A stretch of 34,806 bases of DNA, from IMG/VR virus record IMGVR_UViG_2695420763_000013; one strand, written 5' to 3'. Under the pieces are notes generated by a model. That model saw nothing but the letters and a program-made list of their open reading frames with translations, searched no databases and was not told the origin of the DNA. A program made the translations under genes and the position numbers. Shown here in pieces: positions 8,237-34,806 of this stretch (position 1 is the first letter of the stretch; each line of letters starts with the position of its first letter). Origin of the DNA: a virus (taxonomy: Duplodnaviria; Heunggongvirae; Uroviricota; Caudoviricetes).

Positions 8237-8295
8237 CCGTTTAACTCCGTGGTTAATGGGTGAGTGATATTTTCAGTTGTGCCGGAGATGTCAGG

Positions 8296-8889: not shown

Positions 8890-8956
8890 GATGGATCCCC
8901 TGAATAAAAACCGGGGATGATGCCAGTTAGCCGTAATCTCTGCATTTTCTTAAACG

Positions 8957-8971
8957 TTGGTTTGGGAGAAG
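8957..8971 (+). other. Putative invertase crossover-site core, copy 1 (TTGGTTTGGGAGAAG)
   Basis: Identical 15-mer at 10579..10593 (same orientation) and 12416..12430 (inverted); in each copy it encodes G-L-G-E at the junction between constant and variable tail-fibre parts. Confidence 0.55.
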
Positions 8972-9318
8972 CGGCGAAAAGGGATGTGGGTACAGGAGAA
9001 AATCAGATACCGGATATGTCAGCCTGGAAAAGAAATCCGAGTTCTAATCGCTGGAGAAAATTGCCTGATGGAACCATCATTCAAATGGGAATATCAGCAT
9101 CAGGGCCATTAGGCTCACCTGTAAATATCACCCTGCCGATATCTTTCAGCAATACCAATTATTGTGTTGTTGCATCGTACGATAATGCACGGTCAGGTGT
9201 GTCAACAATGGTTAGTTTTGCAGCATTACCTGTTTCACCATCGCAATTTTCCCTGATGTCATCTGTGACTGAGCAAGGAATAAATCCTTTTGCTTACTGG
9301 ATTGCTTTTGGAGATTGA
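8959..9318 (+). CDS. Promoterless tail-fibre C-terminal cassette (exact copy of the H C-terminus)
   Basis: Translation from the crossover core (GLGEAAKRDVGTGENQ...AFGD) is identical to the last ~120 aa of H (12069..12430, minus strand). The upstream part of the ORF-track ORF 8917..9318 is out-of-cassette read-through. Confidence 0.5.
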   Translation, partial: GLGEAAKRDVGTGENQIPDMSAWKRNPSSNRWRKLPDGTIIQMGISASGPLGSPVNITLPISFSNTNYCVVASYDNARSGVSTMVSFAALPVSPSQFSLMSSVTEQGINPFAYWIAFGD

Positions 9319-9321
9319 TAA

Positions 9322-9741
9322 ATGGACAGATACTTCTATTCACAAAAAGAAAATGGTTTTTTTACCGATTTAAATAAAGCACCTTCAGATGCTGTTGAGA
9401 TAACCACGGATGAATGGCTATCACTACTGGATGGTCAGGATAATGGCATGAAAATAGTCAGCAATCAGGAGGGATATCCGGTTTTGACAGAGCAACCACC
9501 TTTATCAAAAGAAAACCTTATTGCATTGGTAGAGTTGAAAAAAGGAAAACTTATTAATGAAGCCAACGAGCACATGAACAGCAGGCAATGGCCTGGTAAA
9601 GCGGCTATTGGTCGTCTGAAAGGTGAGGAACTGGCGCAATATAATTTGTGGCTGGATTATCTGGACGCACTGGAGCTGGTCGATACTTCCAGTGCGCCAG
9701 ATATTGAATGGCCTACGCCTCCGGCAGTTCAGGCCAGATGA
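9322..9741 (+). CDS. Tail fibre assembly chaperone (Tfa family), copy of 11646..12065
   Basis: 139 aa with a Tfa-type C-terminus (WLDYLDALELVDTSSAPDIEWPTPP); identical to the chaperone immediately downstream of H. Confidence 0.7.
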   Translation: MDRYFYSQKENGFFTDLNKAPSDAVEITTDEWLSLLDGQDNGMKIVSNQEGYPVLTEQPPLSKENLIALVELKKGKLINEANEHMNSRQWPGKAAIGRLKGEELAQYNLWLDYLDALELVDTSSAPDIEWPTPPAVQAR

Positions 9742-10315
9742 TATCCGGCGCGGTGCTGGTATCTGTTACCGTCACCGCGTCAATGTAATCCAGCACGGCG
9801 TTAAGTCGGGTTGTTTCTGCCTGCGTCAACTTCCGTCCGGCCTGCAATTTCAGTTGAATCAGACTAATGGAAGCCATTGCAGTATCAATCAGTGACTGAC
9901 GTTGTGCTTCTGCCGCGTCTACTGCGGCGCTATGCTGTGCCTCGGTATCCGTCACCCATTTCTCACCATCCCATTTATCGTATGGCGTTAACGGGGCGAT
10001 AGTGGTTGTATTATCAGGGTAATCACCCGGAACTGTGATTTCTTTTGATTCTCCTGTTTCGGTGCTAAAGACGATTTCACCGCGATGGTCTGGCACATAT
10101 TCCCATGAGTTAAAATCTGCAGATCGGCAGATTGCATAACCAGCTTTGTATGCGCCTGGGGCATCTAAACAGGAATATGCCGGAATGCCGACACCAATAG
10201 CAAGATATTCAGTTGAAGCTGAAATATATTCCCGACTCATGACATCAAAGTTATAAACAGTAATTTCTCCTGCCATAGTGGCAATTAATTCACTGTTTAA
10301 TTCTGCGTTATTCAT
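9713..10315 (-). CDS. Tail fibre assembly chaperone (Tfa family), copy of 11072..11674
   Basis: 200 aa with a Tfa-type C-terminus (LDYIDAVTVTDTSTAPDIIWPELP); identical to the plus-strand copy. Confidence 0.7.
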   Translation of the reverse strand: MNNAELNSELIATMAGEITVYNFDVMSREYISASTEYLAIGVGIPAYSCLDAPGAYKAGYAICRSADFNSWEYVPDHRGEIVFSTETGESKEITVPGDYPDNTTTIAPLTPYDKWDGEKWVTDTEAQHSAAVDAAEAQRQSLIDTAMASISLIQLKLQAGRKLTQAETTRLNAVLDYIDAVTVTDTSTAPDIIWPELPEA

Positions 10316-10576
10316 TATGCAGCCCTCACAATATAGTTAAAAGCGACATTTCGTGGGCGTGTTTCATTCGCACCAGCAGGTTTAGTCGTTGCCGCAACAA
10401 CACCACCCTCTGTAATAGCCGGGTTGGGAATTGGGTAATTATCGAAGTCAATGGCCGGAGACAGGGGCGTGATTTGTTTTAAAATCGTGGTGCCTGTAAA
10501 ACTTTCCAGAGTCTGGTCGTTAGTTCGTGAAGTCCAGATTCCCCAATAGTGGTTATGACTGACAATCGCACCGTCC
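10315..10576 (-). pseudogene. Truncated copy of tail-fibre cassette B C-terminus (lacks N-terminal part and crossover site)
   Basis: Exact reverse complement of 10811..11072; the repeat identity ends at 10576, so this copy has no in-frame crossover core or start. Confidence 0.5.
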
Positions 10577-10578
10577 TA

Positions 10579-10593
10579 TTGGTTTGGGAGAAG
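10579..10593 (+). other. Putative invertase crossover-site core, copy 2
   Basis: TTGGTTTGGGAGAAG at the start of cassette B, 2 bp after the end of the left repeat arm. Confidence 0.55.
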
Positions 10594-11072
10594 GCTCTGC
10601 ATTACCTGTTGGTGTCCCTGTTCCGTGGCCTTCAGCCACTCCGCCGACAGGCTGGATGAAATGCAACGGTGCGGCTTTTTCTGCTGAAGAATACCCGGAA
10701 CTGGCAAAGGCTTACCCGACAAATAAATTGCCTGATTTACGCGGTGAGTTTATTCGTGGCTGGGATGACGGACGTGGAGTGGATAACGGAAGGGGATTAT
10801 TAACGCTTCAGGACGGTGCGATTGTCAGTCATAACCACTATTGGGGAATCTGGACTTCACGAACTAACGACCAGACTCTGGAAAGTTTTACAGGCACCAC
10901 GATTTTAAAACAAATCACGCCCCTGTCTCCGGCCATTGACTTCGATAATTACCCAATTCCCAACCCGGCTATTACAGAGGGTGGTGTTGTTGCGGCAACG
11001 ACTAAACCTGCTGGTGCGAATGAAACACGCCCACGAAATGTCGCTTTTAACTATATTGTGAGGGCTGCATAA
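10581..11072 (+). CDS. Alternative tail-fibre C-terminal cassette B (receptor-binding tip), promoterless in this orientation
   Basis: Begins in frame inside the crossover core (GLGEGSALPVGVPVPWP...). The pattern GW-KCNGA, LPDLRGEFIRGWDDGRG and C-terminal RP-NVAFNYI is typical of Mu S/P1 S-type variable tail-fibre tips. The ORF-track start at 10584 is a TTG. Confidence 0.6.
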   Translation, partial: GLGEGSALPVGVPVPWPSATPPTGWMKCNGAAFSAEEYPELAKAYPTNKLPDLRGEFIRGWDDGRGVDNGRGLLTLQDGAIVSHNHYWGIWTSRTNDQTLESFTGTTILKQITPLSPAIDFDNYPIPNPAITEGGVVAATTKPAGANETRPRNVAFNYIVRAA

Positions 11073-11674
11073 TGAATAACGCAGAATTAAACAGTGAATT
11101 AATTGCCACTATGGCAGGAGAAATTACTGTTTATAACTTTGATGTCATGAGTCGGGAATATATTTCAGCTTCAACTGAATATCTTGCTATTGGTGTCGGC
11201 ATTCCGGCATATTCCTGTTTAGATGCCCCAGGCGCATACAAAGCTGGTTATGCAATCTGCCGATCTGCAGATTTTAACTCATGGGAATATGTGCCAGACC
11301 ATCGCGGTGAAATCGTCTTTAGCACCGAAACAGGAGAATCAAAAGAAATCACAGTTCCGGGTGATTACCCTGATAATACAACCACTATCGCCCCGTTAAC
11401 GCCATACGATAAATGGGATGGTGAGAAATGGGTGACGGATACCGAGGCACAGCATAGCGCCGCAGTAGACGCGGCAGAAGCACAACGTCAGTCACTGATT
11501 GATACTGCAATGGCTTCCATTAGTCTGATTCAACTGAAATTGCAGGCCGGACGGAAGTTGACGCAGGCAGAAACAACCCGACTTAACGCCGTGCTGGATT
11601 ACATTGACGCGGTGACGGTAACAGATACCAGCACCGCGCCGGATATCATCTGGCCTGAACTGCCGGAGGCGTAG
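11072..11674 (+). CDS. Tail fibre assembly chaperone for cassette B (Tfa family)
   Basis: 200 aa; ATG overlaps the cassette B stop; Tfa-type C-terminus. Confidence 0.75.
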   Translation: MNNAELNSELIATMAGEITVYNFDVMSREYISASTEYLAIGVGIPAYSCLDAPGAYKAGYAICRSADFNSWEYVPDHRGEIVFSTETGESKEITVPGDYPDNTTTIAPLTPYDKWDGEKWVTDTEAQHSAAVDAAEAQRQSLIDTAMASISLIQLKLQAGRKLTQAETTRLNAVLDYIDAVTVTDTSTAPDIIWPELPEA

Positions 11675-12065
11675 GCCATTCAATATCTGGCGCACTGGAA
11701 GTATCGACCAGCTCCAGTGCGTCCAGATAATCCAGCCACAAATTATATTGCGCCAGTTCCTCACCTTTCAGACGACCAATAGCCGCTTTACCAGGCCATT
11801 GCCTGCTGTTCATGTGCTCGTTGGCTTCATTAATAAGTTTTCCTTTTTTCAACTCTACCAATGCAATAAGGTTTTCTTTTGATAAAGGTGGTTGCTCTGT
11901 CAAAACCGGATATCCCTCCTGATTGCTGACTATTTTCATGCCATTATCCTGACCATCCAGTAGTGATAGCCATTCATCCGTGGTTATCTCAACAGCATCT
12001 GAAGGTGCTTTATTTAAATCGGTAAAAAAACCATTTTCTTTTTGTGAATAGAAGTATCTGTCCAT
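11646..12065 (-). CDS. Tail fibre assembly chaperone for the current H variant (P2 G-like)
   Basis: 139 aa directly downstream of H on the same strand; Tfa-type C-terminus. Confidence 0.75.
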   Translation of the reverse strand: MDRYFYSQKENGFFTDLNKAPSDAVEITTDEWLSLLDGQDNGMKIVSNQEGYPVLTEQPPLSKENLIALVELKKGKLINEANEHMNSRQWPGKAAIGRLKGEELAQYNLWLDYLDALELVDTSSAPDIEWPTPPAVQAR

Positions 12066-12068
12066 TTA

Positions 12069-13256
12069 TCAATCTCCAAAAGCAATCCAGTAAGCAAAAG
12101 GATTTATTCCTTGCTCAGTCACAGATGACATCAGGGAAAATTGCGATGGTGAAACAGGTAATGCTGCAAAACTAACCATTGTTGACACACCTGACCGTGC
12201 ATTATCGTACGATGCAACAACACAATAATTGGTATTGCTGAAAGATATCGGCAGGGTGATATTTACAGGTGAGCCTAATGGCCCTGATGCTGATATTCCC
12301 ATTTGAATGATGGTTCCATCAGGCAATTTTCTCCAGCGATTAGAACTCGGATTTCTTTTCCAGGCTGACATATCCGGTATCTGATTTTCTCCTGTACCCA
12401 CATCCCTTTTCGCCGCTTCTCCCAAACCAAGGTATGCGAGAAGACCAGCTACATCCTTTCCACTCAAATGAGTCAGCGTCTCATCCAGTGGCTGCTTACC
12501 TGACAGCGCATTGTTAATGGTGGCGCTGAATTTCGGGTCATTGTTAATGGCTGCGGCAATTTCTTTCAGTGTGTCCAGCGTGGCTGGCGCGCCGTTAATC
12601 AGAGCGGTAATAGCAGCCTGTACAAACGCAGTGGTCGCAATCCGCGTGGTGTTATTTCCTGCATCAGGCGTCGGCGCTTTTGGTTCTCCGGTAAATGTCG
12701 GATTATGTTTCTGTGCATACTGGGTATGAGGATCCTGTGCGGCAATGTGGTTTCTCATCTGGTCATCCACATACAGCCTTAATTCCAGGACTTCATCATC
12801 CACGTATTTACGGGTCGCCAGTACCACCGACGGGTCGATTTTCAGCGTGATGGCTTCGGTATTCGTGACAACCAGAATCATGCGGATAGTCTGGGTACGA
12901 CCACTGCCTTCCTGTAACTGCGGTTTGTACGTTTCCGGGCAGTTCGCCACCGCAATGAGTACGCCTTCATCATCATAAAGCCCAATCTCACGGATCCAGA
13001 ATCCGCCCTCGTTCTCAGGGATGATTTGCTCCGCAATAATCTGGCTCTGGTTATTCGGGTCAACACTCAGAAGATTCAGCGGCGCGATGCGTTTCTGGTT
13101 AATAAGTTTTGTCTGTGCCGGGTCTGGTGTCGGCAAGACACCATTTGCATCACCAACGGCCATTTGCGTCAGATTCAGCTTACTGCCGAGCATCGTCGCG
13201 TTAGCCAGCCGTGCCGCGCCCTGATTAGTCAGAATGGCGTAGTATTTCACTGTCAT
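12069..13256 (-). CDS. H: Tail fibre protein H (constant N-terminal part fused to variable cassette A)
   Basis: 395 aa. The N-terminus resembles P2 gpH (MAVGD...GGFW.RE.GLYDD.G.LIAVAN....YKP...EGSGR). The C-terminal ~120 aa begins at the inverted crossover core 12416..12430. Confidence 0.85.
   Translation of the reverse strand: MTVKYYAILTNQGAARLANATMLGSKLNLTQMAVGDANGVLPTPDPAQTKLINQKRIAPLNLLSVDPNNQSQIIAEQIIPENEGGFWIREIGLYDDEGVLIAVANCPETYKPQLQEGSGRTQTIRMILVVTNTEAITLKIDPSVVLATRKYVDDEVLELRLYVDDQMRNHIAAQDPHTQYAQKHNPTFTGEPKAPTPDAGNNTTRIATTAFVQAAITALINGAPATLDTLKEIAAAINNDPKFSATINNALSGKQPLDETLTHLSGKDVAGLLAYLGLGEAAKRDVGTGENQIPDMSAWKRNPSSNRWRKLPDGTIIQMGISASGPLGSPVNITLPISFSNTNYCVVASYDNARSGVSTMVSFAALPVSPSQFSLMSSVTEQGINPFAYWIAFGD
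12416..12430 (-). other. Putative invertase crossover-site core, copy 3 (inverted, inside H)
   Basis: Reverse complement of TTGGTTTGGGAGAAG; encodes G-L-G-E in H. Confidence 0.55.
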
Positions 13257-13864
13257 GCGTTTACTCTCAGGTTATCAATTAAATGAATGGCCGAGGCCGG
13301 GAAATAATCCCCTCCGACAATAATGGCCTCCGGGGTGTAGGGATAAACCGTCAGGGCGTCGCCGTGATAGCATCCCGCACCGGCAAAAATGTTGCCGGTT
13401 GTACTTAAACTGATAGCCAGTCCCGTCAGATGGCGGCTTGCAGGTTTTGCATCAGCAACGAGACGCTCCAGCTCCTGATACATTTCCTCGGTAATACCCT
13501 GCTCAAGCACGCCAACAACGATGCGGAACGTCCCCGGCTCCTCGTTGAGCTGCCACCACTCCCTCACCTCAATCAGATAGCCGAGCGGCTCCACCACACG
13601 GCGAATCGCACCAATAGTGCCCTTATGGCAGTGAATGAAATACGCATCGCGGATAACAGCGCGTTTTGTCGCTTCCGGCCACTTATCATCCCAGCGGTCA
13701 ACCGAAAATGACCACGCCAGCCACGGCAGCAGATTTGCCGGGCAGGTGTCCGGGTTCCACAGCTCACGAATACTGACCGGCGTTTTTTCAATTTCCGCAC
13801 AGGCTTTTGCGGCGGCAACTTCAAGCGGTGATGAGCCGGTCGGCAGCAGGCGCGAATCACTCAT
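13253..13864 (-). CDS. I: Baseplate protein I
   Basis: 203 aa between J and H; overlaps both neighbours by a few nt. Confidence 0.75.
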   Translation of the reverse strand: MSDSRLLPTGSSPLEVAAAKACAEIEKTPVSIRELWNPDTCPANLLPWLAWSFSVDRWDDKWPEATKRAVIRDAYFIHCHKGTIGAIRRVVEPLGYLIEVREWWQLNEEPGTFRIVVGVLEQGITEEMYQELERLVADAKPASRHLTGLAISLSTTGNIFAGAGCYHGDALTVYPYTPEAIIVGGDYFPASAIHLIDNLRVNA

Positions 13865-15117: not shown

Positions 15118-15749
15118 AGAGGACTCCCGGTTGTGCCGCCGCTGTCGCCGGGGTGTTTATGGGTATGCAGTACCTTACCGTTTGATGAGAGTTCACCGCC
15201 GGTATGTTTAATGTTGCCGCGCATCGTCCCGCCCTTCTGCACTTCCAGCGTGCCGGTAATCAGTCTGTTGGTGCAGACCACCTCCGGGGTGTCCAGGGTG
15301 ATGCGGGTTGACGCTTTCACCATGACCACCGGCACCGTGGCAGTAACAGAATCAGAAGCCGTCACGCTGGCCGTTTTAATTCCGCTTACCGTGAGTGCAC
15401 TGGTTTCGGGTTCATACTCAATCACCGCCCCGTCAGGGAAACGGATATGCAGGGCATCCGCCGACGCAGACGGCGCGGGGTTATCGCCGGAATAAATCCC
15501 CGGCAGAACGAACGCCGTGTCGAGTTCACCGCCCACGGCCAGAATCAGCACCTGTTCCCCCACGGAAGGTGCCCACCATGTGCGCGAACGTCCGGCGCGA
15601 TGGGTCAGCCACTGAAGCCAGTCGGTGCACATGCCGCCGGTCTGCACACGGCAGCGACCGGCGTTAAGGTCGGTTTCGACGATAATGCCGGTGCGGATCA
15701 TGTTGCGCAGTGCGCGCGCGAGTTCCTGAATATTTGCGAGAGTGTTCAT
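15114..15749 (-). CDS. V: Baseplate spike/hub protein V
   Basis: 211 aa, the P2 gpV length; 4-nt overlap with W. Confidence 0.85.
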   Translation of the reverse strand: MNTLANIQELARALRNMIRTGIIVETDLNAGRCRVQTGGMCTDWLQWLTHRAGRSRTWWAPSVGEQVLILAVGGELDTAFVLPGIYSGDNPAPSASADALHIRFPDGAVIEYEPETSALTVSGIKTASVTASDSVTATVPVVMVKASTRITLDTPEVVCTNRLITGTLEVQKGGTMRGNIKHTGGELSSNGKVLHTHKHPGDSGGTTGSPL

Positions 15750-15815
15750 AACGGGAAGGATGCCGCCGGGTCATACCGGCGGCAATGTGCCGATGAGGTG
15801 TCGGGAATGGCACAA

Positions 15816-22189: not shown

Positions 22190-23962
22190 ATGACCATCAC
22201 CACAGACACCACTCTTTTACACGACCCGCGTCGTCAGGCGGCGCTGCTGTACTGGCAGGGGTTTTCCGTGCCGCAGATTGCCGCCATGTTGCAGATGAAA
22301 CGCCCGACGGTGCAGAGCTGGAAACAGCGCGACGGCTGGGACAACGTTGCCCCCATCAGCCGTGTCGAAATGAGCCTGGAAGCGCGGCTGACCCAGCTCA
22401 TCATCAAACCGCAGAAAACCGGCGGTGACTTCAAGGAAATTGACCTGCTGGGACGCCAGATTGAACGACTGGCACGGGTAAATCGTTACAGCCAGACCGG
22501 CAACGAGGCAGACCTTAATCCGAACGTCGCTAACCGCAACAAAGGCGGGCGGCGCAAACCGAAAAAAAATTTTTTCAGCGACGAGGCCATCGAAAAGCTG
22601 GAGCAGATTTTCTTTGAGCAGTCTTTCGACTATCAGTTGCACTGGTATCGCGCCGGGCTTGAGCACCGCATCCGCGATATCCTGAAATCCCGCCAGATTG
22701 GCGCGACGTTTTATTTTTCCCGCGAGGCCCTGCTGCGCGCCCTGAAAACCGGTCATAACCAGATTTTTCTGTCGGCCAGTAAAACGCAGGCGTATGTGTT
22801 CCGCGAATACATCATCGCCTTTGCCCGTCTGGTTGACGTTGACCTGACCGGTGACCCGATTGTCCTGGGCAATAACGGCGCAAAACTGATTTTTCTCGGC
22901 ACCAACTCCAACACCGCACAGAGCCATAACGGTGACCTGTACGTCGACGAGATTTTCTGGATCCCGAATTTTCAGGTACTGCGTAAGGTGGCATCAGGTA
23001 TGGCCTCACAGAGTCACCTGCGCTCGACCTATTTCTCCACCCCGTCCACGCTGGCGCACGACGCCTACCCGTTCTGGTCGGGTGAACTGTTCAACCGGGG
23101 TCGCGCCAGCGCCGCCGAACGCGTGGAAATCGACGTCAGTCATAACGCCCTTGCCGGAGGTCTTCTCTGTGCGGACGGCCAGTGGCGGCAGATTGTCACC
23201 ATTGAGGACGCGCTGAAAGGCGGCTGCACGCTGTTCGACATTGAGCAGCTCAAACGTGAAAACAGCGCCGACGATTTTAAAAACCTGTTCATGTGTGAAT
23301 TTGTTGACGACAAGGCGTCGGTGTTCCCGTTCGAGGAGCTGCAACGCTGCATGGTCGACACGCTGGAAGAATGGGAAGACTATGCGCCGTTTGCCGCGAA
23401 TCCGTTCGGCTCCCGACCGGTATGGATTGGTTACGACCCGTCACACCGTGGCGACAGCGCTGGATGCGTGGTACTGGCACCGCCGGTGGTGGCCGGTGGC
23501 AAATTCAGAATACTTGAGCGTCACCAGTGGAAAGGCATGGACTTTGCCACTCAGGCTGAATCCATCCGCAAACTCACCGAAAAATACAACGTCGAATACA
23601 TCGGAATTGATGCCACCGGCCTCGGTGTCGGCGTGTTCCAGCTCGTGCGCTCGTTCTATCCCGCCGCGCGCGATATCCGCTACACGCCGGAAATGAAAAC
23701 CGCAATGGTGCTCAAGGCAAAAGACGTTATCCGCCGTGGCTGTCTGGAATATGACGTCAGCGCCACCGACATCACCAGCTCGTTTATGGCTATCCGCAAG
23801 ACCATGACCAGCAGCGGACGCAGCGCCACCTATGAGGCCAGCCGCAGCGAGGAAGCCAGCCACGCCGACCTCGCCTGGGCGACCATGCACGCCCTGTTAA
23901 ATGAGCCACTCACCGCCGGTATCAGCACCCCGCTGACATCCACCATTCTGGAGTTTTACTGA
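22190..23962 (+). CDS. P: Terminase large (ATPase) subunit P
   Basis: 590-aa product from the ATG at 22190 (MTITTDTTLL) preceded by GAGG, the P2 gpP length. Confidence 0.9.
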   Translation: MTITTDTTLLHDPRRQAALLYWQGFSVPQIAAMLQMKRPTVQSWKQRDGWDNVAPISRVEMSLEARLTQLIIKPQKTGGDFKEIDLLGRQIERLARVNRYSQTGNEADLNPNVANRNKGGRRKPKKNFFSDEAIEKLEQIFFEQSFDYQLHWYRAGLEHRIRDILKSRQIGATFYFSREALLRALKTGHNQIFLSASKTQAYVFREYIIAFARLVDVDLTGDPIVLGNNGAKLIFLGTNSNTAQSHNGDLYVDEIFWIPNFQVLRKVASGMASQSHLRSTYFSTPSTLAHDAYPFWSGELFNRGRASAAERVEIDVSHNALAGGLLCADGQWRQIVTIEDALKGGCTLFDIEQLKRENSADDFKNLFMCEFVDDKASVFPFEELQRCMVDTLEEWEDYAPFAANPFGSRPVWIGYDPSHRGDSAGCVVLAPPVVAGGKFRILERHQWKGMDFATQAESIRKLTEKYNVEYIGIDATGLGVGVFQLVRSFYPAARDIRYTPEMKTAMVLKAKDVIRRGCLEYDVSATDITSSFMAIRKTMTSSGRSATYEASRSEEASHADLAWATMHALLNEPLTAGISTPLTSTILEFY

Positions 23963-24996
23963 TGAGCAAGAAAAAAGGGAAAACACCGCAACCTGCGGCA
24001 AAAAAAATGACCGCCAGCGCCCCGAAAATGGAGGCATTCACCTTTGGTGAGCCGGTGCCGGTACTCGACCGCCGTGACATTCTGGATTACGTCGAATGCA
24101 TCAGTAACGGCAGATGGTATGAGCCACCAATCAGCTTTACCGGTCTGGCAAAAAGCCTGCGTGCTGCCGTGCATCACAGCTCACCGATTTACGTCAAACG
24201 CAATATTCTGGCCTCGACATTTATCCCGCACCCGTGGCTTTCCCAGCAGGATTTCAGCCGCTTTGTGCTGGATTTTCTGGTGTTCGGTAATGCGTTTCTG
24301 GAAAAGCGATACAGCACCACCGGTAAGGTCATCAGACTGGAAACCTCACCGGCAAAATATACCCGCCGTGGTGTGGCAGAGGATGTTTACTGGTGGGTGC
24401 CGTCCTTCAACGAGCCGACACCTTTCACGCCCGGCTCCGTGTTTCACCTGCTGGAGCCGGATATTAATCAGGAGCTGTACGGCCTGCCGGAATATCTCAG
24501 CGCCCTTAACTCTGCCTGGCTGAATGAGTCGGCCACGTTGTTCCGCCGCAAGTATTACGAAAACGGCGCACATGCCGGATACATCATGTACGTCACTGAT
24601 GCCGTGCAGGATCGCAACGATATCGAAATGCTCCGCGAAAACATGGTGAAGTCGAAAGGCCGCAACAACTTTAAAAATCTGTTTCTCTATGCCCCACAGG
24701 GGAAAGCCGACGGCATTAAAATTATCCCGCTCAGTGAAGTCGCAACGAAGGACGATTTTTTTAATATCAAAAAAGCCAGCGCCGCTGACCTGCTGGACGC
24801 GCACCGCATCCCCTTTCAGTTGATGGGAGGCAAGCCGGAGAACGTCGGGTCGCTGGGCGATATTGAGAAAGTGGCAAAGGTCTTTGTCCGCAATGAGCTT
24901 ATCCCGTTACAGGACAGGATTCGGGAAATAAACGGCTGGCTCGGTCAGGAGGTCATCCGCTTTAAAAACTACTCACTGGACACTGACAACGGCTGA
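23962..24996 (+). CDS. Q: Portal protein Q
   Basis: 344 aa, the P2 gpQ length; start overlaps the P stop. Confidence 0.9.
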   Translation: MSKKKGKTPQPAAKKMTASAPKMEAFTFGEPVPVLDRRDILDYVECISNGRWYEPPISFTGLAKSLRAAVHHSSPIYVKRNILASTFIPHPWLSQQDFSRFVLDFLVFGNAFLEKRYSTTGKVIRLETSPAKYTRRGVAEDVYWWVPSFNEPTPFTPGSVFHLLEPDINQELYGLPEYLSALNSAWLNESATLFRRKYYENGAHAGYIMYVTDAVQDRNDIEMLRENMVKSKGRNNFKNLFLYAPQGKADGIKIIPLSEVATKDDFFNIKKASAADLLDAHRIPFQLMGGKPENVGSLGDIEKVAKVFVRNELIPLQDRIREINGWLGQEVIRFKNYSLDTDNG

Positions 24997-25001
24997 ACAT
25001 C

Positions 25002-25024
25002 GCCGCCTGCGGGCGGCTTTTTTA
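25002..25024 (+). terminator. Rho-independent terminator after Q
   Basis: Hairpin GCCGCC-TGCG-GGCGGC followed by TTTTTT, starting 6 nt after the Q stop. Confidence 0.6.
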
Positions 25025-25164
25025 CACCCCGCCATCACGCCCTCACACGCTCATCACCGCACAAAAAATCCCGCAGACACACCAACGCCCAGCAGGCCAA
25101 GTAAACGCCTTCACGACGCTCTCAGACGCTGAAAAAATAAAATCAGCACCACCGCCAGCGCGCA

Positions 25165-25183
25165 GTGCTTTCCCCGCCTCGCC
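25165..25183. other. cos: cos site (19-nt cohesive-end sequence)
   Basis: GTGCTTTCCCCGCCTCGCC is the reverse complement of the remembered P2 cohesive end GGCGAGGCGGGGAAAGCAC; sits between Q and the cargo, as cos does in P2. Confidence 0.6.
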
Positions 25184-25340
25184 CGCCCGCTTCGTGGGGC
25201 GGTTTTAATGCAGGTGTAAATTCAGTCTAAATACATACCTGTCGGGTCATCAAGCTTGTGCGCTCACTCAATAAAACACATGCAAATAAATGCATATAGA
25301 CATGTGCTACCAACTTGCACTAGCCATGTACATCAGGTAA

Positions 25341-27173
25341 TTAACAACGTAATTCTGTACAATTAGCCCATTCTTCAGAAAAAACAGCATCTGAAGATTT
25401 TGGCCCTGGCCTTGCTTGATTAATTGAAATTCTTACAGGCAAATTAAATGCAGAACCAAATGCAACAGCATCACCTCTTGGTAAACCTGATATTTGTTTT
25501 AAGATTTGTTCATTACCGCTTTCCATTGCATATCTGAGAGCCTGTAAATCTCTTTCATTAGTCAAACGTAACGAAAACCAGTTTGAACACATTGCCAAAA
25601 CAGTAGGAGAAAGCTCTGAGGGTCGCTGAGTACTGACAATTAAAGAGCATTTGAATTTCCTACCTTCTTTAGCAAGTCGTTCATATGCTTTAATCTGTGA
25701 GTCAATTTCAGCATAAGGGTCACGCAGGTAATGATGCGCTTCTTCCAACAAAAGTACCGTAGGATACGAACGTTCCTGCCCACGTCTAAATAGTATCTCA
25801 GCAAACATCTCCAACAATGCACTAAGTAACATTGGAGCATGATCTTGTGCCAAATTTTTCATATTAACTATATGAACATTCCAATCATTTTCTTGTCCTT
25901 TTTCCTTACCAAAGAAGTAATCAACTTCATCACTCATAGCTTTATCCCAATGCGTTCCACCATCTGCTAGCTCACCCCCTCCATTTAAATTAACAATAGA
26001 TTTAAATCTTATATCCTCTGCAAGTTGTTGTATGATTTTTACCAATGGCAACACGTTACTAAAACCAAACGCGTCACGTTTACTTCCATTAGAACGGTCA
26101 GCAGCTACACATCCAAATTCAGCAACCAAAGTCGCTAAACTTTTAAACGGTGGCCATACATTCGTTCTTTTAAGACGTCTACGCCTTAATAAATCCAACC
26201 ACTCAGCCAATTTACTTTGATTTGTGTCACGACAATCATCATACAAAAGAAAAGTTTCACCATCATCTTTTTCCAAGTAAATATTACGGCTTTTAAAATG
26301 AGTCCGATTAATTGCACTTAATGCATTTCTTAATGCGGGCAATTGTGTTTTATCACTTGGTCTTAATAATTTAATTAACCCAGCAAAACCTAATGCCTGA
26401 TATGGTATCTTTTTATAACAATAATACTCTTCACTATATAGCTCACCCTTTTGCTGCTTTTTTTCCAAACTATCAACATTTGGGGATTCCCCTAGAATAG
26501 TGTGCTTTACATTTGGAATACCTGTAAAAGCTTGCGCGTATTCACCATTTATGTCAAAAATAACTATTCTTGAGTTAGGGTATTTTTCAGAAACCTTCCT
26601 CGTTAACAAAGCATTGAAATTTGATTTACCATATCCTGTACTACCAAGAACGGCTAAGTGTCGCGACAATAATTTATCAACACTTGCAAATATCTTAACG
26701 GTTTTAGTTCGAGAATCCACACCTAATTCAACCGCTTTTGGGAGTTCTTCTTTATCAATACTATAAATGATGTTCAAAAAATCTGAAGTCAAAGGAACAG
26801 CAGAAGAACCCAATGCAGGTAAGCGCCAATCTTCTGATATAAAAACATAACCATTTAACTCCCTTTTCACAAAGCCAATTGCATAGGCGATAATTTGTCT
26901 TAGAGGTATATCAGCTAAATCAGATGTGCCTACATTTGCCTTATGCGCTTTATCCGCTTCAACAAATGCCATATCTGTCACTCTTGCGACAACTAATATA
27001 TTACCTGCATCGAACCCAATAAGATCTCCTGGTTGCGTTACTGAGCTCACCCCCTTTCTATGCGATGCTAATCTGCCTTGCAACCCCTCATGCAGGTTTA
27101 TCCTAATTCTTTCCCCTTCTAATCCTACAACGTATCCAATAGCCGAGATTTCAGTAAGTTTAAAAAGGGACAT
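25341..27173 (-). CDS. HerA-like ATPase/helicase (defence cargo, gene 2 of 2)
   Basis: 610-aa product from the ATG at 27171..27173, preceded by AAAGGAG 6 nt upstream. Walker A GSTGYGKS (about residue 183), Walker B-like VLLLEEAHHY, and an IVSTQRPSEL motif typical of HerA/FtsK-type ATPases. AT-rich. The ORF-track start at 27224 is a TTG. Confidence 0.85.
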   Translation of the reverse strand: MSLFKLTEISAIGYVVGLEGERIRINLHEGLQGRLASHRKGVSSVTQPGDLIGFDAGNILVVARVTDMAFVEADKAHKANVGTSDLADIPLRQIIAYAIGFVKRELNGYVFISEDWRLPALGSSAVPLTSDFLNIIYSIDKEELPKAVELGVDSRTKTVKIFASVDKLLSRHLAVLGSTGYGKSNFNALLTRKVSEKYPNSRIVIFDINGEYAQAFTGIPNVKHTILGESPNVDSLEKKQQKGELYSEEYYCYKKIPYQALGFAGLIKLLRPSDKTQLPALRNALSAINRTHFKSRNIYLEKDDGETFLLYDDCRDTNQSKLAEWLDLLRRRRLKRTNVWPPFKSLATLVAEFGCVAADRSNGSKRDAFGFSNVLPLVKIIQQLAEDIRFKSIVNLNGGGELADGGTHWDKAMSDEVDYFFGKEKGQENDWNVHIVNMKNLAQDHAPMLLSALLEMFAEILFRRGQERSYPTVLLLEEAHHYLRDPYAEIDSQIKAYERLAKEGRKFKCSLIVSTQRPSELSPTVLAMCSNWFSLRLTNERDLQALRYAMESGNEQILKQISGLPRGDAVAFGSAFNLPVRISINQARPGPKSSDAVFSEEWANCTELRC

Positions 27174-28413
27174 TACCTTCTCCTTTAGAAAGATTAGCAA
27201 TTGCTTCAACCAACTCATCAACAATATTATCTCGTGGAAAGAGCACAGGGTATGGTAGATGTTCTACGAAACTATTAAAATATGCCTTGCTTCCTCCCCC
27301 AACTACAGTTACTTGATTGAAAGCCATATTTTTTAAAGTAACAATAGCTTTCTCAGCTTCCGAACCGCCACCCTTACTTACTTTGGTAATTGCTTCTTTC
27401 AATTCAGGATAATATATAACAACATGGAAAGATGGATTCAGTAACGCGCCTAATATTATTCTATTTATATGATAATCACCGAAACCAAACCCATTTATGA
27501 ACAACGCTGTTTGAGGTTTCGAAATAAACTCCCCAAAACGTCTAAACATCTCTCCATAAACGAAGCCGATTGTATGGCTATATTTATTCGCCCCTGGATA
27601 AATCAAATGTTGACCGCGATAAAAGTCATCTTTATTGATTATGTCATTAATATATTCATCATATGCTTGAGATGCACTAACTTCGTTAACAGTCAAGCTA
27701 TCATTTTGATACCACGTAAGTGAGCCATGTAATTTATAGAGATACGCATGATAATGTCCGAATCTTGCTTCGCCCTTCGCATTTACATTTCTGAAAGCCA
27801 AATCAAAATTCTGGGGATAAAACTGCCGTGTATGTAGCCCAGAAAAACCATTAAACAACTGTATTCCTAAATCTTCTGCAGCCCACTCTAAGGCCAAATC
27901 ATAATTTGTTGTAAAAATTGCCGGAGCCGACTGACCGGGCTGTCTATTTGAAATTAATTTTGAAATTAACTCTTTGTGATATTTAAACGCATCTTTTTTA
28001 CCCTGATTTTTCTCTCTAAACTGTTCTCCTGTTAATAATGCAGCCTTCGTAACCTCTTTATATAATGAACTTAATATCTTCCTGAATTCCTCCTCTTCAT
28101 CTTCACATCGTCTAGTTTTAGCTACAGAAAGAAATTTAGTTGCTTCATCTATCAAAAGTTCAACATTGACCAAATTGTTATCAGAATCAATTTGCGAAAC
28201 CAGAAGATATTTATCAATAAGTGCTCCCAAAAGCTCAGGGTAGTTTTGCTTAAACGATTTCCATACATCTTTCATCGTTTTCCCACCACAACCGACAGAA
28301 GCACCAGCACCTAACAGAACGCCAACATTATCTAATTGACACAAGGAATAAACGTGAGAACGAAAATCATCCTCATTTAACTTGTTACCACCTTGATAAA
28401 TCGACATAAACAT
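27160..28413 (-). CDS. SIR2-like (sirtuin-fold) NAD-binding protein (defence cargo, gene 1 of 2)
   Basis: 417 aa. Glycine-rich GAGAS(V)GCGG near the N-terminus, TTNYD motif (Asn about 170) and KLHGS motif (His about 229), as in prokaryotic defence SIR2 domains. A second ATG at 28405..28407 has better SD spacing, so the true start may be 2 codons in. Confidence 0.85.
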   Translation of the reverse strand: MFMSIYQGGNKLNEDDFRSHVYSLCQLDNVGVLLGAGASVGCGGKTMKDVWKSFKQNYPELLGALIDKYLLVSQIDSDNNLVNVELLIDEATKFLSVAKTRRCEDEEEEFRKILSSLYKEVTKAALLTGEQFREKNQGKKDAFKYHKELISKLISNRQPGQSAPAIFTTNYDLALEWAAEDLGIQLFNGFSGLHTRQFYPQNFDLAFRNVNAKGEARFGHYHAYLYKLHGSLTWYQNDSLTVNEVSASQAYDEYINDIINKDDFYRGQHLIYPGANKYSHTIGFVYGEMFRRFGEFISKPQTALFINGFGFGDYHINRIILGALLNPSFHVVIYYPELKEAITKVSKGGGSEAEKAIVTLKNMAFNQVTVVGGGSKAYFNSFVEHLPYPVLFPRDNIVDELVEAIANLSKGEGNVPF

Positions 28414-28448
28414 CCTTTTACAAATTTTAAAATTAGCTAAGTTACTAC

Positions 28449-28477
28449 ATTAAAAATCAAATATTAGAAAAAGTCAT
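28449..28477 (-). promoter_or_regulatory. Candidate sigma70 promoter for the SIR2/HerA operon
   Basis: Minus strand reads ATGACT-17 nt-TTTAAT in a 115-bp AT-rich intergenic region upstream of the SIR2 start. Hand-matched hexamers only. Confidence 0.25.
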
Positions 28478-28528
28478 TACTCATAATCACACAATAGATT
28501 CATATGGTTAGCATAGTCACAATAGCTA

Positions 28529-30652
28529 TCATTGTTGATTATCAGCATCCTGTACATTGAAAATCGCGGTTGACTCGCCAACTATGCCTGCTCGTGTGTC
28601 TCCTTTGTTTGTACATTTACGTGATGCTTCTATTTTCAATGCCAGATTAAGCACTTTCAAGACCTCCGGGTCATTCCATTCGATAACACCGTCATCTACC
28701 AGATTAAGCACTGCTGCGGCGTGCTCAGAAGGTGTGGGAGCCGGTAACGAAGTATCACCACCGGTGAGCTTTCCACAGTTATTGACAGGACTCCGAGGCG
28801 CGGCGATGCCGCTTTTTAAAGTTAAAGGCTCCACGACCGGAACTTTCGGAACAATGCGCCAGTCCGTCGTTCTGGTGATATGAATATGACGCGCGCCGAG
28901 ATGCGGCGCGTAAATGCCGACCACTCTCTCGACTTCTTCCTCGTACTCGTTAACTTCATCCGACGGGCTACGGGCGACTCTGACAGTCTGGCAATCGCGC
29001 GGAACATTTGCCCCACCCTGCGCACTGATATACAACGCAAAATCGCCACTGTCTGCGGCAGCGCGTGCAGCCTCGACGCGTTCGTCAAACTCATCAGCTA
29101 TGCTGACGCCGCGAGGCAATTTGCGTAGTTCACGGTAAGCCCCCATTGTCGGCAGACCAACCGTTTTAAATTGCGGGATGCGCCACGTTGACGCCCATGC
29201 AGTAACAGCCGCGGCAGTATCTTTCAGAGGTCTGCCGGTATCGTTATCGAGCTGACCATCCAGTGCATAGCCGTCGATATTTTTTGAAATGTATTTCGCG
29301 ATATACCCCGCAGCACCGCCCCGATTAAGATGTTTTGCCTGAAAACGGTTTCGCGCAGCTCCTCTTTCGTCGCCATCCTCTTTGAGCGCGTAGCGACGCA
29401 TGATTTCGATAATCTGGTTACGCTGGCGTGGATTACAAAAAAGCATCATATGCCAGTGCGGCGTTCCGTCGTGGTGTGGCTCGACGACTCGCAAACCGTA
29501 GACCTGTAAATCATTATCCTTGAATGCCGTGCGCATCAGGCTCCAGATACGGCAGAGATAACGCTGCGCATCCTTTGGATTAAATGCCTCATCGTTCCAG
29601 CCGTGATTTAGCTGGACGGTTTTACTTTCGCCTTTTCCAACCTGACGTGTCGGGTGATACTTTGACGGCGCGGTCAGCGTGATAAACATCCCCACATCAC
29701 CTTCTGCGGCGGCGTAACGCTCAATACCGGCAATGGTGTTCATCAGCTCCATCCGGCGAATTTCAGGATTAGAAATACTGCCCATCACCTTACTGATAAG
29801 GTCGATGCGCTCGCCTGTTTCCCTGTTTTCGAGATCACACGATTTAAGAAATTCCAGATTTGCCTGGCGGCGTGCACGCACATCACGAATGGCATGTTTA
29901 CTGGCATAAGGAGAACGGTCTTTATTGACCTCCCCGACAGCAATCAGTAACGCCTCATGCCAGCGCATACGCTGGCCTTTAAGCTGACTAATCCACCACT
30001 CATCGTTAAACAGACGGGCAATGGCAGAATATGCCTGCCTCGTGGTCATCTGTCCTTTACGGTATTTTTTCCAGTAGAGAGGGGAAATATTGAAAGCACG
30101 TGCAGCGCCAGCAACATGACCATACAGATGCGCCTGAGCCTCATCCGTAAACAGCGATTCTTTCTCGCCATGTGCATCAACCCATGCATCGCAGAGTTCC
30201 TCATACATCATGAAAAGCTGCGATGAGATACGGGCGGCAAACTTTTTCAGTTCCTTGTCATTCATCCCCGGCAGACGCGCATAATGGTCACGCTCTGCCA
30301 GAAACAGCAACGACGCGTCGGTGTTCATTTCATGGCGCTGATTCACGCGCTCAATGCGCGGCCATAAACGACGCTGAAAAGTGGATGTGAGGAAATAAAA
30401 CCCGTGCACCGGGCTTTTATTGCGCCGGATGTAGTCATAGCGTGAAGTAAACAGCGAGCGCAAAAAGTAAGGCAGGCGGTTAATCGTGGATAAAACACCT
30501 TGCACCTGACGCATCTCGTCACGTGTAAGGGGTCTTTCGCGCCCGACAGCCTCGCGTGGCGCGTTCCATGCATAAGCACCGGTAAACGCCTTACCGGTGC
30601 CTGCGGCAAATGCTGATGGAGGGACAAAACGCCCGGAGGCTTTAACGGCCAT
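28529..30652 (-). CDS. A: Replication initiation protein A (rolling-circle HUH nickase)
   Basis: HUH-like HWHMMLF and a two-tyrosine GYIAKYISK motif typical of superfamily rolling-circle initiators. Start set at the ATG 30650..30652 (MAVKASGRF) from memory of the P2 gpA N-terminus; the ORF track extends to 30694. Confidence 0.8.
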   Translation of the reverse strand: MAVKASGRFVPPSAFAAGTGKAFTGAYAWNAPREAVGRERPLTRDEMRQVQGVLSTINRLPYFLRSLFTSRYDYIRRNKSPVHGFYFLTSTFQRRLWPRIERVNQRHEMNTDASLLFLAERDHYARLPGMNDKELKKFAARISSQLFMMYEELCDAWVDAHGEKESLFTDEAQAHLYGHVAGAARAFNISPLYWKKYRKGQMTTRQAYSAIARLFNDEWWISQLKGQRMRWHEALLIAVGEVNKDRSPYASKHAIRDVRARRQANLEFLKSCDLENRETGERIDLISKVMGSISNPEIRRMELMNTIAGIERYAAAEGDVGMFITLTAPSKYHPTRQVGKGESKTVQLNHGWNDEAFNPKDAQRYLCRIWSLMRTAFKDNDLQVYGLRVVEPHHDGTPHWHMMLFCNPRQRNQIIEIMRRYALKEDGDERGAARNRFQAKHLNRGGAAGYIAKYISKNIDGYALDGQLDNDTGRPLKDTAAAVTAWASTWRIPQFKTVGLPTMGAYRELRKLPRGVSIADEFDERVEAARAAADSGDFALYISAQGGANVPRDCQTVRVARSPSDEVNEYEEEVERVVGIYAPHLGARHIHITRTTDWRIVPKVPVVEPLTLKSGIAAPRSPVNNCGKLTGGDTSLPAPTPSEHAAAVLNLVDDGVIEWNDPEVLKVLNLALKIEASRKCTNKGDTRAGIVGESTAIFNVQDADNQQ

Positions 30653-34303: not shown

Positions 34304-34330
34304 AATCTCCCTTACACGGGCTTATTTTTT
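34304..34330. other. attR: Prophage attR core (exact P2 att 27-mer)
   Basis: AATCTCCCTTACACGGGCTTATTTTTT, the reverse complement of the remembered P2 attP core; 80 bp downstream of the int stop. Confidence 0.75.
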
Positions 34331-34488: not shown

Positions 34489-34806
34489 TCACTCTCCACA
34501 TTTGAATGTCAGACGAGCGACGCCATGTAATCCTGCACCTTCTGTCTTCAGGTCAACTATCTGCATTTTTTTGCCCTGAGTAACACAGAAATGGGCTGCA
34601 TCATTTTTTACTATATTTTCTGCACCAGATATTCTACCCCTGGCTAAAGAAGCTTCGGCTTCGGTGTAGTATTGGTTATCGAGTTTACGCTGAATATTAC
34701 TTTTATATGCAAGACCAAATTTACCGATACTTGTCTCATCATTATGCACAGCACAACCAGACATAATAAAAATACTAATTAATGATATAGCAGCTATCTT
34801 TTTCAT
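34489..34806 (-). CDS. yegR: Small lipoprotein YegR
   Basis: 105 aa with signal peptide and lipobox (MKKIAAISLISIFIMSGC); host flank beyond attR. Name from remembered E. coli synteny. The start codon is the last triplet of the window. Confidence 0.6.
   Translation of the reverse strand: MKKIAAISLISIFIMSGCAVHNDETSIGKFGLAYKSNIQRKLDNQYYTEAEASLARGRISGAENIVKNDAAHFCVTQGKKMQIVDLKTEGAGLHGVARLTFKCGE

What the first reader, a model, noticed from the sequence alone, without database searches (positions are those of the whole stretch)
25341..28413. Two-gene SIR2-like plus HerA-like operon in the P2 tin/old hotspot: candidate NAD-targeting anti-phage system
Where P2 carries tin/old (between cos and gene A) there are two co-directional, overlapping genes. 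The first, 417 aa, has the sirtuin-fold hallmarks GAGAS, TTNYD (Asn about 170) and KLHGS (His about 229). The second, about 610 aa, has a HerA/FtsK-type ATPase core: Walker A GSTGYGKS, Walker B-like LLLEEAHH and a TQRPS motif. From established knowledge, this P2 position is a hotspot for defence cargo, and SIR2 paired with HerA is a described defence family that acts by NAD depletion. Whether this pair is a known subtype or a divergent one cannot be decided without a search.
Basis: partly seen in the sequence, partly recalled or inferred. Interest (0 to 1): 0.85.

Follow-up and report, generated by a model that had tools for sequence, protein, structure and literature searches.

The report
Known E. 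coli SIR2-HerA phage defence

Summary
On the minus strand, a 415/417-aa SIR2 gene (27160-28407/28413) overlaps a 610-aa HerA gene (25341-27173) by 14 nt. They lie in a low-GC island (0.37 against 0.53). Both proteins are 100% identical, end to end, to the chains of PDB 8J4U, 8SU9, 8SUB, 8SUW, 8UAE and 8UAF (SIR2 also 8SXX). These are the cryo-EM structures of the E. coli SIR2-HerA complex. RefSeq carries them as WP_021577683.1 and WP_021577682.1. Those accessions are encoded in E. coli NCTC11129, the strain cited as the source of the system shown to protect against lambda, and they were expressed and assayed in later biochemical work. The cassette sits between the exact P2 cos sequence (25165-25183) and gpA, which is the tin/old position. 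Rousset et al. 2022 list "SIR2 + HerA" as system 14 of this P2 hotspot, with 188 occurrences. Twenty of 5,426 complete E. coli genomes carry the cassette at 99% identity or more. Two small points are not obviously in print. The cargo module replaces the last ~88 codons of gpA, and the prophage has a perfect 1.6-kb inverted duplication in its tail-fibre inversion region. Interest is low.

The parts
27160..28413 (-). SIR2 NADase effector gene. The longest ORF gives 417 aa. The published and RefSeq protein WP_021577683.1 starts at the ATG at 28407 and is 415 aa.
   Evidence: ORF. Pfam SIR2_2 E=4e-10. PADLOC SIR2 PDLC02186 E=4e-190, full length. NCBIfam SIR2_antiphage scores 507 bits against a cut-off of 500. 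100% identical over 415 aa to PDB 8J4U chain A and 8SU9/8SUB/8SUW/8SXX/8UAE/8UAF. Motifs GAGAS, TTNYD and KLHGS.
25341..27173 (-). HerA-type ATPase/helicase gene, 610 aa, WP_021577682.1. The longest ORF extends to a TTG at 27224.
   Evidence: ORF. Pfam DUF87 (HerA central domain) E=2e-20. PADLOC HerA PDLC02185 E=2e-277. NCBIfam HerA_antiphage scores 710 bits, below its cut-off of 800. 100% identical over 610 aa to PDB 8J4U chain M and related entries. Walker A GSTGYGKS (Lys183), LLLEEAHH and TQRPS.
27160..27173 (-). 14-nt overlap between the SIR2 stop and the HerA start. The HerA Shine-Dalgarno sequence (AAGGAGAAGG) lies inside the SIR2 3' end, which implies translational coupling.
   Evidence: Read directly from the sequence.
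28414..28528 (-). AT-rich 115-nt spacer between the gpA stop and the SIR2 start. This is the presumed site of the cassette's own promoter, which has not been demonstrated.
   Evidence: Sequence. The consensus scan found no sigma-70-like site here, and across the whole region it found no more sites than in shuffled sequence (11 against 11.2). The promoter is therefore an inference, not a finding.
25217..28656 (.). The whole cargo module, about 3.44 kb with GC about 0.37. It is bounded by the points where homology to P2-like backbones stops.
   Evidence: Alignment to Peduovirus P22H4 resumes at window 25175-25216 on one side and at 28657 on the other. Backbone matches in about 1,546 E. coli genomes end at window ~28650-28662, and only the 20 genomes that carry the cassette continue through the junction. 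GC profile.
28529..28633 (-). Divergent 34-codon 3' tail of gpA, supplied by the cargo module in place of the canonical last ~88 codons.
   Evidence: tblastn of gpA matches P2-like phages at ~99% over residues 1-673 of 707 only. Canonical gpA is 761 aa. PGAP marks the gene 'missing C-terminus'.
25165..25183 (-). P2 cos cohesive-end sequence, GGCGAGGCGGGGAAAGCAC.
   Evidence: Exact match, with 0.01 expected by chance. The sequence itself was recalled from memory. That it lies next to the right end of a linear P2-like genome is confirmed.
28529..30652 (-). gpA replication endonuclease, the hotspot flank on one side.
   Evidence: Pfam Phage_GPA E=8e-124. RefSeq annotation.
23962..24996 (+). gpQ portal protein, the hotspot flank on the other side.
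   Evidence: ORF. The nearly identical E. coli prophage region (98.7% over 19 kb) annotates this gene as phage portal protein.

Best explanation
This is the E. coli SIR2-HerA (Nezha) abortive-infection defence system, carried as moron cargo in the gpA to cos/gpQ hotspot of a P2-like prophage integrated next to yegR. The mechanism below is taken from published work on these exact proteins, not from my own analysis. SIR2 forms a dodecamer and HerA a hexamer, and together they build a complex of about 1 MDa. Assembly with HerA switches on the SIR2 NADase. ATP at or below physiological concentration holds the NADase and the nuclease activity in check. On infection the complex is released from this inhibition, NAD+ is hydrolysed, and the HerA ATPase/helicase and a nuclease activity also contribute, so the infected cell stops supporting phage growth. 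Shown here: the identity of the proteins, the operon anatomy, the location and the distribution. Shown by others: complex formation, the enzymatic activities, inhibition by ATP and protection against lambda. Still inferred: the physiological trigger (a fall in ATP, or a phage DNA structure engaged by HerA), and the promoter that expresses the cassette in the lysogen.
For: Both proteins are 100% identical over their full length to the chains of 8J4U/8SU9/8SUB/8SUW/8UAE/8UAF, and SIR2 also to 8SXX. RefSeq assigns WP_021577683.1 and WP_021577682.1 to these genes in records 99.9-100% identical to the window cassette, including strain NCTC11129. The window proteins match the PDB sequences exactly, which supports their being the same proteins. 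PMC11472057 expressed exactly those accessions and reports nuclease specificity and inhibition by ATP for EcSIR2-HerA. PMC11514289 states that Sir2-HerA of E. coli NCTC 11129 protects against lambda, that assembly activates the NADase, and that 0.5 mM ATP inhibits it. It cites Tang 2023 and Shen 2023 for the structures. Full-length profile hits: PADLOC E=4e-190 and E=2e-277, and NCBIfam SIR2_antiphage above its cut-off. The genes overlap by 14 nt. The location between cos and gpA is shown. The hotspot and SIR2+HerA within it are catalogued in PMC9122126. Phage NAD+-regeneration genes act as counter-defence against Sir2-HerA, which supports NAD+ depletion as the effective blow.
Against: Nothing argues against the identity. 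There are three caveats. First, the two primary structural papers (Mol Cell 2023) were not readable here, so mechanistic details come from papers that cite them and from my own recollection. Second, no convincing promoter was found upstream, so expression from this prophage context is assumed. Third, HerA scores below the NCBIfam equivalog cut-off (710 against 800), which is why RefSeq calls it only 'ATP-binding protein'. This concerns how that model is calibrated and casts no doubt on what the protein is.
Confidence: 0.97

Rival explanations
1. The cassette is the known system, but in this prophage it is silent or not independently expressed. It would be transcribed only by read-through from the repressed P2 early operon (cox-B-A), so it would not protect the lysogen.
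For: The consensus scan found no sigma-70-like site in the 115-nt spacer 28414-28528, and promoter-like sites across the region are no more frequent than in shuffles. The cassette is co-directional with gpA and lies immediately downstream of it.
Against: The cassette is kept intact at 99% identity or more in 20 genomes from unrelated sources, with no frameshifts reported. Cargo at this hotspot, such as old/tin and the AC1 system, protects lysogens in its natural context. The spacer is AT-rich, and a simple consensus scan misses many real promoters.
Confidence: 0.1
2. The system protects mainly by degrading DNA (the nuclease activity together with HerA helicase/translocase) or by burning ATP. 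NAD+ depletion would then be secondary.
For: Four activities (NADase, nuclease, ATPase, helicase) are reported for SIR2-HerA complexes. The nuclease specificity and its inhibition by ATP were also seen for the E. coli complex. An analogy to HerA-NurA end resection has been proposed.
Against: Deleting either of the NAD+-regenerating genes of phage Bas63 lowers plating on Sir2-HerA cells by 10^4 to 10^6, which indicates that NAD+ loss is the limiting insult. NAD+ depletion is the mechanism that papers citing the primary work attribute to the system.
Confidence: 0.12
3. The pair is a housekeeping HerA-type DNA-repair or DNA-translocation module, or belongs to another SIR2 defence family (Thoeris ThsA, DSR1/2, SIR2-APAZ/pAgo), rather than being SIR2-HerA.
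For: There are weak secondary hits to helicase_HerA (95 bits), FtsK/TrwB and Aga_SIR2 models.
Against: The DNA-repair HerA equivalog scores 95 bits against a cut-off of 970. The Argonaute-associated SIR2 models score E=7e-18 against E=4e-190 for the SIR2-HerA model. There is no NurA, ThsB/TIR, pAgo or APAZ partner in the module. Identity to the solved SIR2-HerA complex is exact.
Confidence: 0.01

Closest known systems
E. coli SIR2-HerA / Nezha (EcSir2-HerA; WP_021577683.1 + WP_021577682.1; PDB 8J4U, 8SU9, 8SUB, 8SUW, 8SXX, 8UAE, 8UAF; Gao et al. 2020, Tang et al. 2023, Shen et al. 2023)
   Same: Everything is the same. Both proteins are 100% identical over their full length. The RefSeq accessions are the same, and so is the P2-like prophage context in strain NCTC11129.
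   Different: Nothing at the protein level. The window's cassette DNA is 100% identical to three complete genomes and 99.9% identical to NCTC11129.
Paenibacillus sp. 453MF SIR2-HerA (Garb et al. 2022; PMC11472057) and Staphylococcus aureus Sir2-HerA (PMC11514289)
   Same: The same two-gene architecture and the same family. In both, HerA binding activates the NADase, ATP inhibits it, and a nuclease activity is reported. ATPase and helicase activities are reported for the Paenibacillus complex.
   Different: Only 28% (SIR2) and 23% (HerA) identity to the Paenibacillus proteins. EcSIR2 has a C-terminal extension and stays a dodecamer, whereas the Paenibacillus SIR2 becomes a tetradecamer on binding HerA. 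S. aureus Sir2 alone is a dimer, and that complex shows no ATPase activity.
P2 old and tin, and other cargo of the P2 gpA-gpQ hotspot (Rousset et al. 2022, PMC9122126)
   Same: The same genomic slot next to cos, and the same role as prophage-borne exclusion or defence cargo. SIR2|DUF87 is row 14 of their Table S5B, with 188 occurrences.
   Different: No sequence relationship to Old (ATPase-TOPRIM nuclease) or Tin. The mechanism differs: an NADase-based abortive infection. The representative HerA printed in Table S5B is a related variant, not the identical sequence.
Archaeal and bacterial HerA-NurA DNA end-resection complex
   Same: A hexameric HerA ATPase/translocase docked through its N-terminal barrel layer onto a partner enzyme.
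   Different: The partner is a SIR2 NADase rather than the NurA nuclease. The repair-type HerA equivalog model scores only 95 bits against a cut-off of 970.

Membership tests
SIR2-HerA (Nezha) anti-phage system | A SIR2-family protein with the NAD-binding Rossmann motif and the catalytic Asn and His | tested here: met
   Pfam SIR2_2 E=4e-10. NCBIfam SIR2_antiphage equivalog scores 507 bits, above its cut-off of 500. PADLOC SIR2 E=4e-190. GAGAS, TTNYD (Asn170) and KLHGS (His229) are present.
SIR2-HerA (Nezha) anti-phage system | A HerA/FtsK-clade P-loop ATPase with Walker A and Walker B motifs | tested here: met
   Pfam DUF87 (HerA central domain) E=2e-20. PADLOC HerA E=2e-277, full length. GSTGYGKS and LLLEEAHH are present. 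One caveat: NCBIfam HerA_antiphage scores 710 bits, below its cut-off of 800.
SIR2-HerA (Nezha) anti-phage system | The two genes are adjacent, co-directional and form one operon | tested here: met
   The genes overlap by 14 nt, and the HerA ribosome-binding site lies inside the end of SIR2.
SIR2-HerA (Nezha) anti-phage system | The proteins assemble into a supramolecular SIR2 dodecamer plus HerA hexamer complex | tested here: met
   This was not modelled here. Both proteins are 100% identical to chains deposited together in 8J4U, 8SU9, 8SUB, 8SUW, 8UAE and 8UAF. The dodecamer and hexamer stoichiometry is as described in PMC11472057 and PMC11514289.
SIR2-HerA (Nezha) anti-phage system | Protects cells against phage and hydrolyses NAD+ on activation | not testable with these tools
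   Reported by others for these same proteins: protection against lambda by the NCTC 11129 system, and an NADase that is activated by assembly and inhibited by ATP. Phage NAD+-regeneration genes counter the system.
Cargo of the P2-like gpA-gpQ (tin/old) hotspot | Located between the replication gene gpA and cos/portal gene gpQ of a P2-like phage, as a variable insert in a conserved backbone | tested here: met
   gpA at 28529-30652, cos at 25165-25183, gpQ at 23962-24996. Backbone homology stops at ~25216 and ~28657. GC is 0.37 against 0.53. The hotspot is defined in PMC9122126.
HerA-NurA DNA repair module | A repair-type HerA equivalog with an adjacent NurA nuclease | tested here: not met
   helicase_HerA scores 95 bits against a cut-off of 970. 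No NurA gene is present, and the partner is SIR2.
Other SIR2 defence families (Thoeris ThsA, DSR1/DSR2, SIR2-APAZ with short pAgo) | SIR2 fused to SLOG, to a long C-terminal sensor or to APAZ, or partnered with TIR/ThsB or pAgo | tested here: not met
   The protein is a 415-aa stand-alone SIR2. The only other gene in the module is HerA. The Argonaute-associated SIR2 models are far weaker (E=7e-18) than the SIR2-HerA model.

The most novel reading that the evidence does not exclude
The SIR2-HerA module did not simply land in the hotspot. In every carrier it replaces the last ~88 codons of gpA with 34 unrelated codons. About 90% of E. coli P2-like prophages keep the canonical gpA 3' end. If that C-terminus is needed for replication, these 20 or more prophages are grounded, replication-defective elements retained by the host for their defence cargo. 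In that case the cassette spreads by recombination between P2 backbones rather than by phage transfer. The cassette is 100% identical between records whose backbone is only 98.7% identical.
Probability: 0.25. Interest if true: 0.25.

Novelty: already known. Interest (0 to 1): 0.08.

Why it matters
It matters little as a discovery. The proteins, their structure, their enzymology, their anti-phage phenotype and their home in the P2 hotspot are all published. The result is useful as a calibration point: a reader working from raw sequence alone correctly recognised a SIR2-HerA defence operon and its hotspot context. It also places the widely used model EcSir2-HerA system in its natural setting, a ~32.8-kb P2-like prophage next to yegR whose gpA has its 3' end truncated at the cargo junction. 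That setting could matter to anyone asking how the system is expressed and mobilised in nature. The real open question for this family is the phage-derived trigger, and this window does not make it more tractable.

Tried and rejected
1. I tried to read the two primary Molecular Cell 2023 papers by PMC id and by DOI. They are not held, so the mechanism is cited from papers that describe them.
2. A megablast of the cassette against 50,697 phage records found nothing. The cassette is seen only in prophages of complete E. coli genomes.
3. The promoter and terminator consensus scan of 24900-28700 gave no more promoter-like sites than shuffles and none in the SIR2 upstream spacer. I therefore do not name a promoter. 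Reading the spacer by eye gave only candidates matching 8 of 12 positions, which I rejected as evidence.
4. I searched Rousset et al.'s supplements for the exact accessions WP_021577683 and WP_021577682 and found no hit. The table was cut when stored, so this is uninformative. The system class is listed.
5. I considered running AlphaFold, fold searches and the large homologue searches, and chose not to. Exact identity to solved structures makes them pointless, and they are costly shared resources.
6. I considered the HerA-NurA repair, Thoeris, DSR and pAgo-SIR2 readings and rejected them on profile scores and on the absence of the required partners.
7. A tRNA scan of the window found none. The prophage is not integrated at a tRNA gene.
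Full report
OBSERVATION. The region 25341-28413 contains two long minus-strand ORFs. One runs 27160-28413 (417 aa from its first ATG). The other runs 25341-27224 (627 aa from a TTG, or 610 aa from the ATG at 27173). They lie in a sharply AT-rich island. The cassette has GC 0.367, against 0.53 for the rest of the window. In 417-aa numbering these are GAGAS 35-39, TTNYD 168-172 (Asn170) and KLHGS 227-231 (His229). In 610-aa numbering they are GSTGYGKS 177-184 (Lys183), LLLEEAHH 474-481 and TQRPS 515-519. The HerA ATG at 27173 is preceded by AAGGAGAAGG and lies 14 nt inside the end of the SIR2 gene, so the two genes are translationally coupled. For SIR2, the second in-frame ATG (28407) is better spaced from the AAGG ribosome-binding site. 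It is also the start used in RefSeq and in the PDB sequences, which gives 415 aa.

WHAT IT IS. Profile searches are unambiguous. Pfam gives SIR2_2 (E=4e-10) and DUF87, the HerA central domain (E=2e-20). PADLOC gives full-length hits to SIR2 PDLC02186 (E=4e-190) and HerA PDLC02185 (E=2e-277). NCBIfam gives SIR2_antiphage at 507 bits, above its cut-off of 500, and HerA_antiphage at 710 bits, below its cut-off of 800. The decisive result is the search against solved structures. The SIR2 protein is 100% identical over all 415 residues to chain A of 8J4U and to 8SU9, 8SUB, 8SUW, 8SXX, 8UAE and 8UAF. The HerA protein is 100% identical over all 610 residues to chain M of 8J4U and to the same set of entries apart from 8SXX. 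In complete E. coli genomes the 3.35-kb cassette occurs in 20 of 5,426 genomes at 99% identity or more, always on the chromosome. It is annotated there as 'SIR2 family anti-phage-associated protein' (WP_021577683.1) plus 'ATP-binding protein' (WP_021577682.1). Strain NCTC11129 encodes exactly these two accessions in the same context. PMC11514289 names Sir2-HerA of E. coli NCTC 11129 as the system shown to protect against lambda. It cites Tang et al. 2023 and Shen et al. 2023 (Mol Cell) for the EcSir2-HerA structures and enzymology. PMC11472057 synthesised and assayed exactly WP_021577683.1 and WP_021577682.1. The window therefore carries the model E. coli SIR2-HerA ('Nezha') system itself, not a relative of it.

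CONTEXT. The window is a complete P2-like prophage. A 19-nt direct repeat, AATCTCCCTTACACGGGCT, lies at 1507-1525 and 34304-34322. From memory, this is the P2 att core. The element is therefore about 32.8 kb, between a U32-peptidase gene (1-1362) and yegR (34489-34806). The order of late genes, terminase, portal, cargo, gpA, early genes and integrase matches the annotated, nearly identical prophage of strain MEI2BO-21 (98.7% over 19 kb). The exact P2 cohesive-end sequence is at 25165-25183. The portal gene ends at 24996, and gpA occupies 28529-30652 (Pfam Phage_GPA E=8e-124). Rousset et al. 2022 (PMC9122126) define this locus as a defence hotspot. Their Table S5B lists 'SIR2 | DUF87' as system 14 with 188 occurrences, annotated 'SIR2 + HerA (Gao et al., 2020)'. 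Alignment to a free P2-like phage (Peduovirus P22H4) and to about 1,500 E. coli prophages places the module boundaries at about 25217 and about 28656.

HOW IT WORKS. The shown and inferred steps are kept apart here. Others have shown the following for these same proteins, as reported. EcSIR2 is a dodecamer, and EcHerA binds it as a hexamer. A C-terminal extension of EcSIR2 and the N-terminus of EcHerA form the interface. Complex formation activates the NADase. ATP at about 0.5 mM inhibits the NADase, and ATP also inhibits the nuclease activity. ATPase and helicase activities are present. The system protects against lambda. Independent genetics shows that two phage genes that regenerate NAD+ are needed to plate on Sir2-HerA cells, with a 10^4 to 10^6 drop when either is deleted. 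This supports NAD+ depletion as the effective mechanism. Still inferred or open is the trigger in vivo. Candidates are a fall in ATP during infection, or a phage DNA or protein pattern engaged by HerA (one search states this explicitly as unknown). Also open is how the cassette is transcribed in the lysogen. I found no convincing promoter in the 115-nt AT-rich spacer upstream of SIR2, so a dedicated promoter is an assumption made by analogy with other lysogen-expressed hotspot cargo. My recollection of the Tang and Shen abstracts agrees with this: a ~1 MDa 12:6 assembly, a staircase-like HerA hexamer, and four cooperating activities. That recollection is my own knowledge and not a tool result, because neither paper could be opened.

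RIVALS. A repair-type HerA-NurA module is excluded, since the helicase_HerA equivalog scores 95 bits against a cut-off of 970 and there is no NurA. Other SIR2 defence families are excluded by the architecture and by much weaker profile scores. Two minor rivals remain. One is that the cassette is silent in this context, which I put at about 0.1. The other is that DNA degradation or ATP consumption, rather than NAD+ loss, is the main protective activity, at about 0.12. The counter-defence genetics argues against the second.

NOVELTY AND VERDICT. This is already known. I set interest at 0.08.

NOTICED IN PASSING. First, the cargo module overwrites the 3' end of gpA. The protein matches P2-like gpA at ~99% only to residue 673 of 707, whereas canonical gpA has 761 residues. 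PGAP flags it as a pseudogene lacking its C-terminus. The canonical 3' end is present in 1,344 of 1,496 E. coli genomes that have this gpA region, while the truncated junction is found only in the 20 cassette carriers. I could not test whether this inactivates the phage. Second, the tail-fibre region holds a perfect 1,633-nt inverted repeat (8945-10577 and 10810-12442), with arms 232 nt apart, next to a serine invertase gene at 8296-8889. No complete E. coli genome covers 80% or more of the 8200-13300 region. The listed closest relatives align over about 3.3-3.5 kb, and 5,101 minus 1,633 is 3,468 nt, the length expected if one arm is absent. This is either a real duplication or an assembly artefact of an invertible segment. 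Third, the closest relative, MEI2BO-21, has extra hypothetical genes at two other variable sites that this window lacks.

Noticed in passing
window 28529-28656 (3' end of gpA, minus strand): The SIR2-HerA cargo module replaces the last ~88 codons of the canonical 761-aa gpA with 34 unrelated codons. PGAP flags gpA as a pseudogene ('missing C-terminus') in MEI2BO-21 and NCTC11129. The canonical 3' end is kept in 1,344 of 1,496 E. coli genomes that have this gpA region, and the truncated junction occurs only in the 20 cassette carriers. The prophage may be unable to replicate.
   Followed up: partly
window 8296-12442: A perfect 1,633-nt inverted repeat (8945-10577 and 10810-12442, arms 232 nt apart) duplicates a tail-fibre C-terminal segment and two tail-fibre assembly genes. 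It lies next to a serine invertase gene (8296-8889, Resolvase + HTH_7). No complete E. coli genome covers 80% or more of this region, and the closest listed relatives align over only ~3.3-3.5 kb, about the length of the region without one arm. This is either a real palindromic duplication of an invertible host-range segment or an assembly artefact.
   Followed up: partly
window 1507-1525 and 34304-34322: A 19-nt direct repeat, AATCTCCCTTACACGGGCT, brackets the element. From memory, it matches the P2 att core. It defines a ~32.8-kb prophage between a U32 peptidase gene (1-1362) and yegR (34489-34806). The window holds no tRNA gene.
   Followed up: partly
window 25341-27173 (HerA): The structurally characterised EcHerA scores 710 bits on NCBIfam NF042943 HerA_antiphage, below that model's cut-off of 800. 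RefSeq therefore names it only 'ATP-binding protein', while its partner gets the anti-phage name. This is a gap in annotation calibration, not a biological anomaly.
   Followed up: yes
L001 3184-4167 and 9759-10544 (E. coli MEI2BO-21 prophage) against window ~8296-8889 and ~15749-15814: The closest related prophage carries two extra 'hypothetical protein' genes, on the opposite strand, at two other variable sites: between the sheath and tail-fibre genes, and between gpV and the virion morphogenesis gene. The window has an invertase at the first site and only ~65 nt at the second. These are further cargo hotspots in the same phage lineage, and I did not examine their contents.
   Followed up: no
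window 25200-28550: The cassette is absent from all 50,697 deposited phage genomes but present in 20 complete E. coli chromosomes. It is 100% identical between records whose surrounding P2 backbone is only ~98.7% identical. This fits exchange of the module by recombination between prophages.
   Followed up: partly
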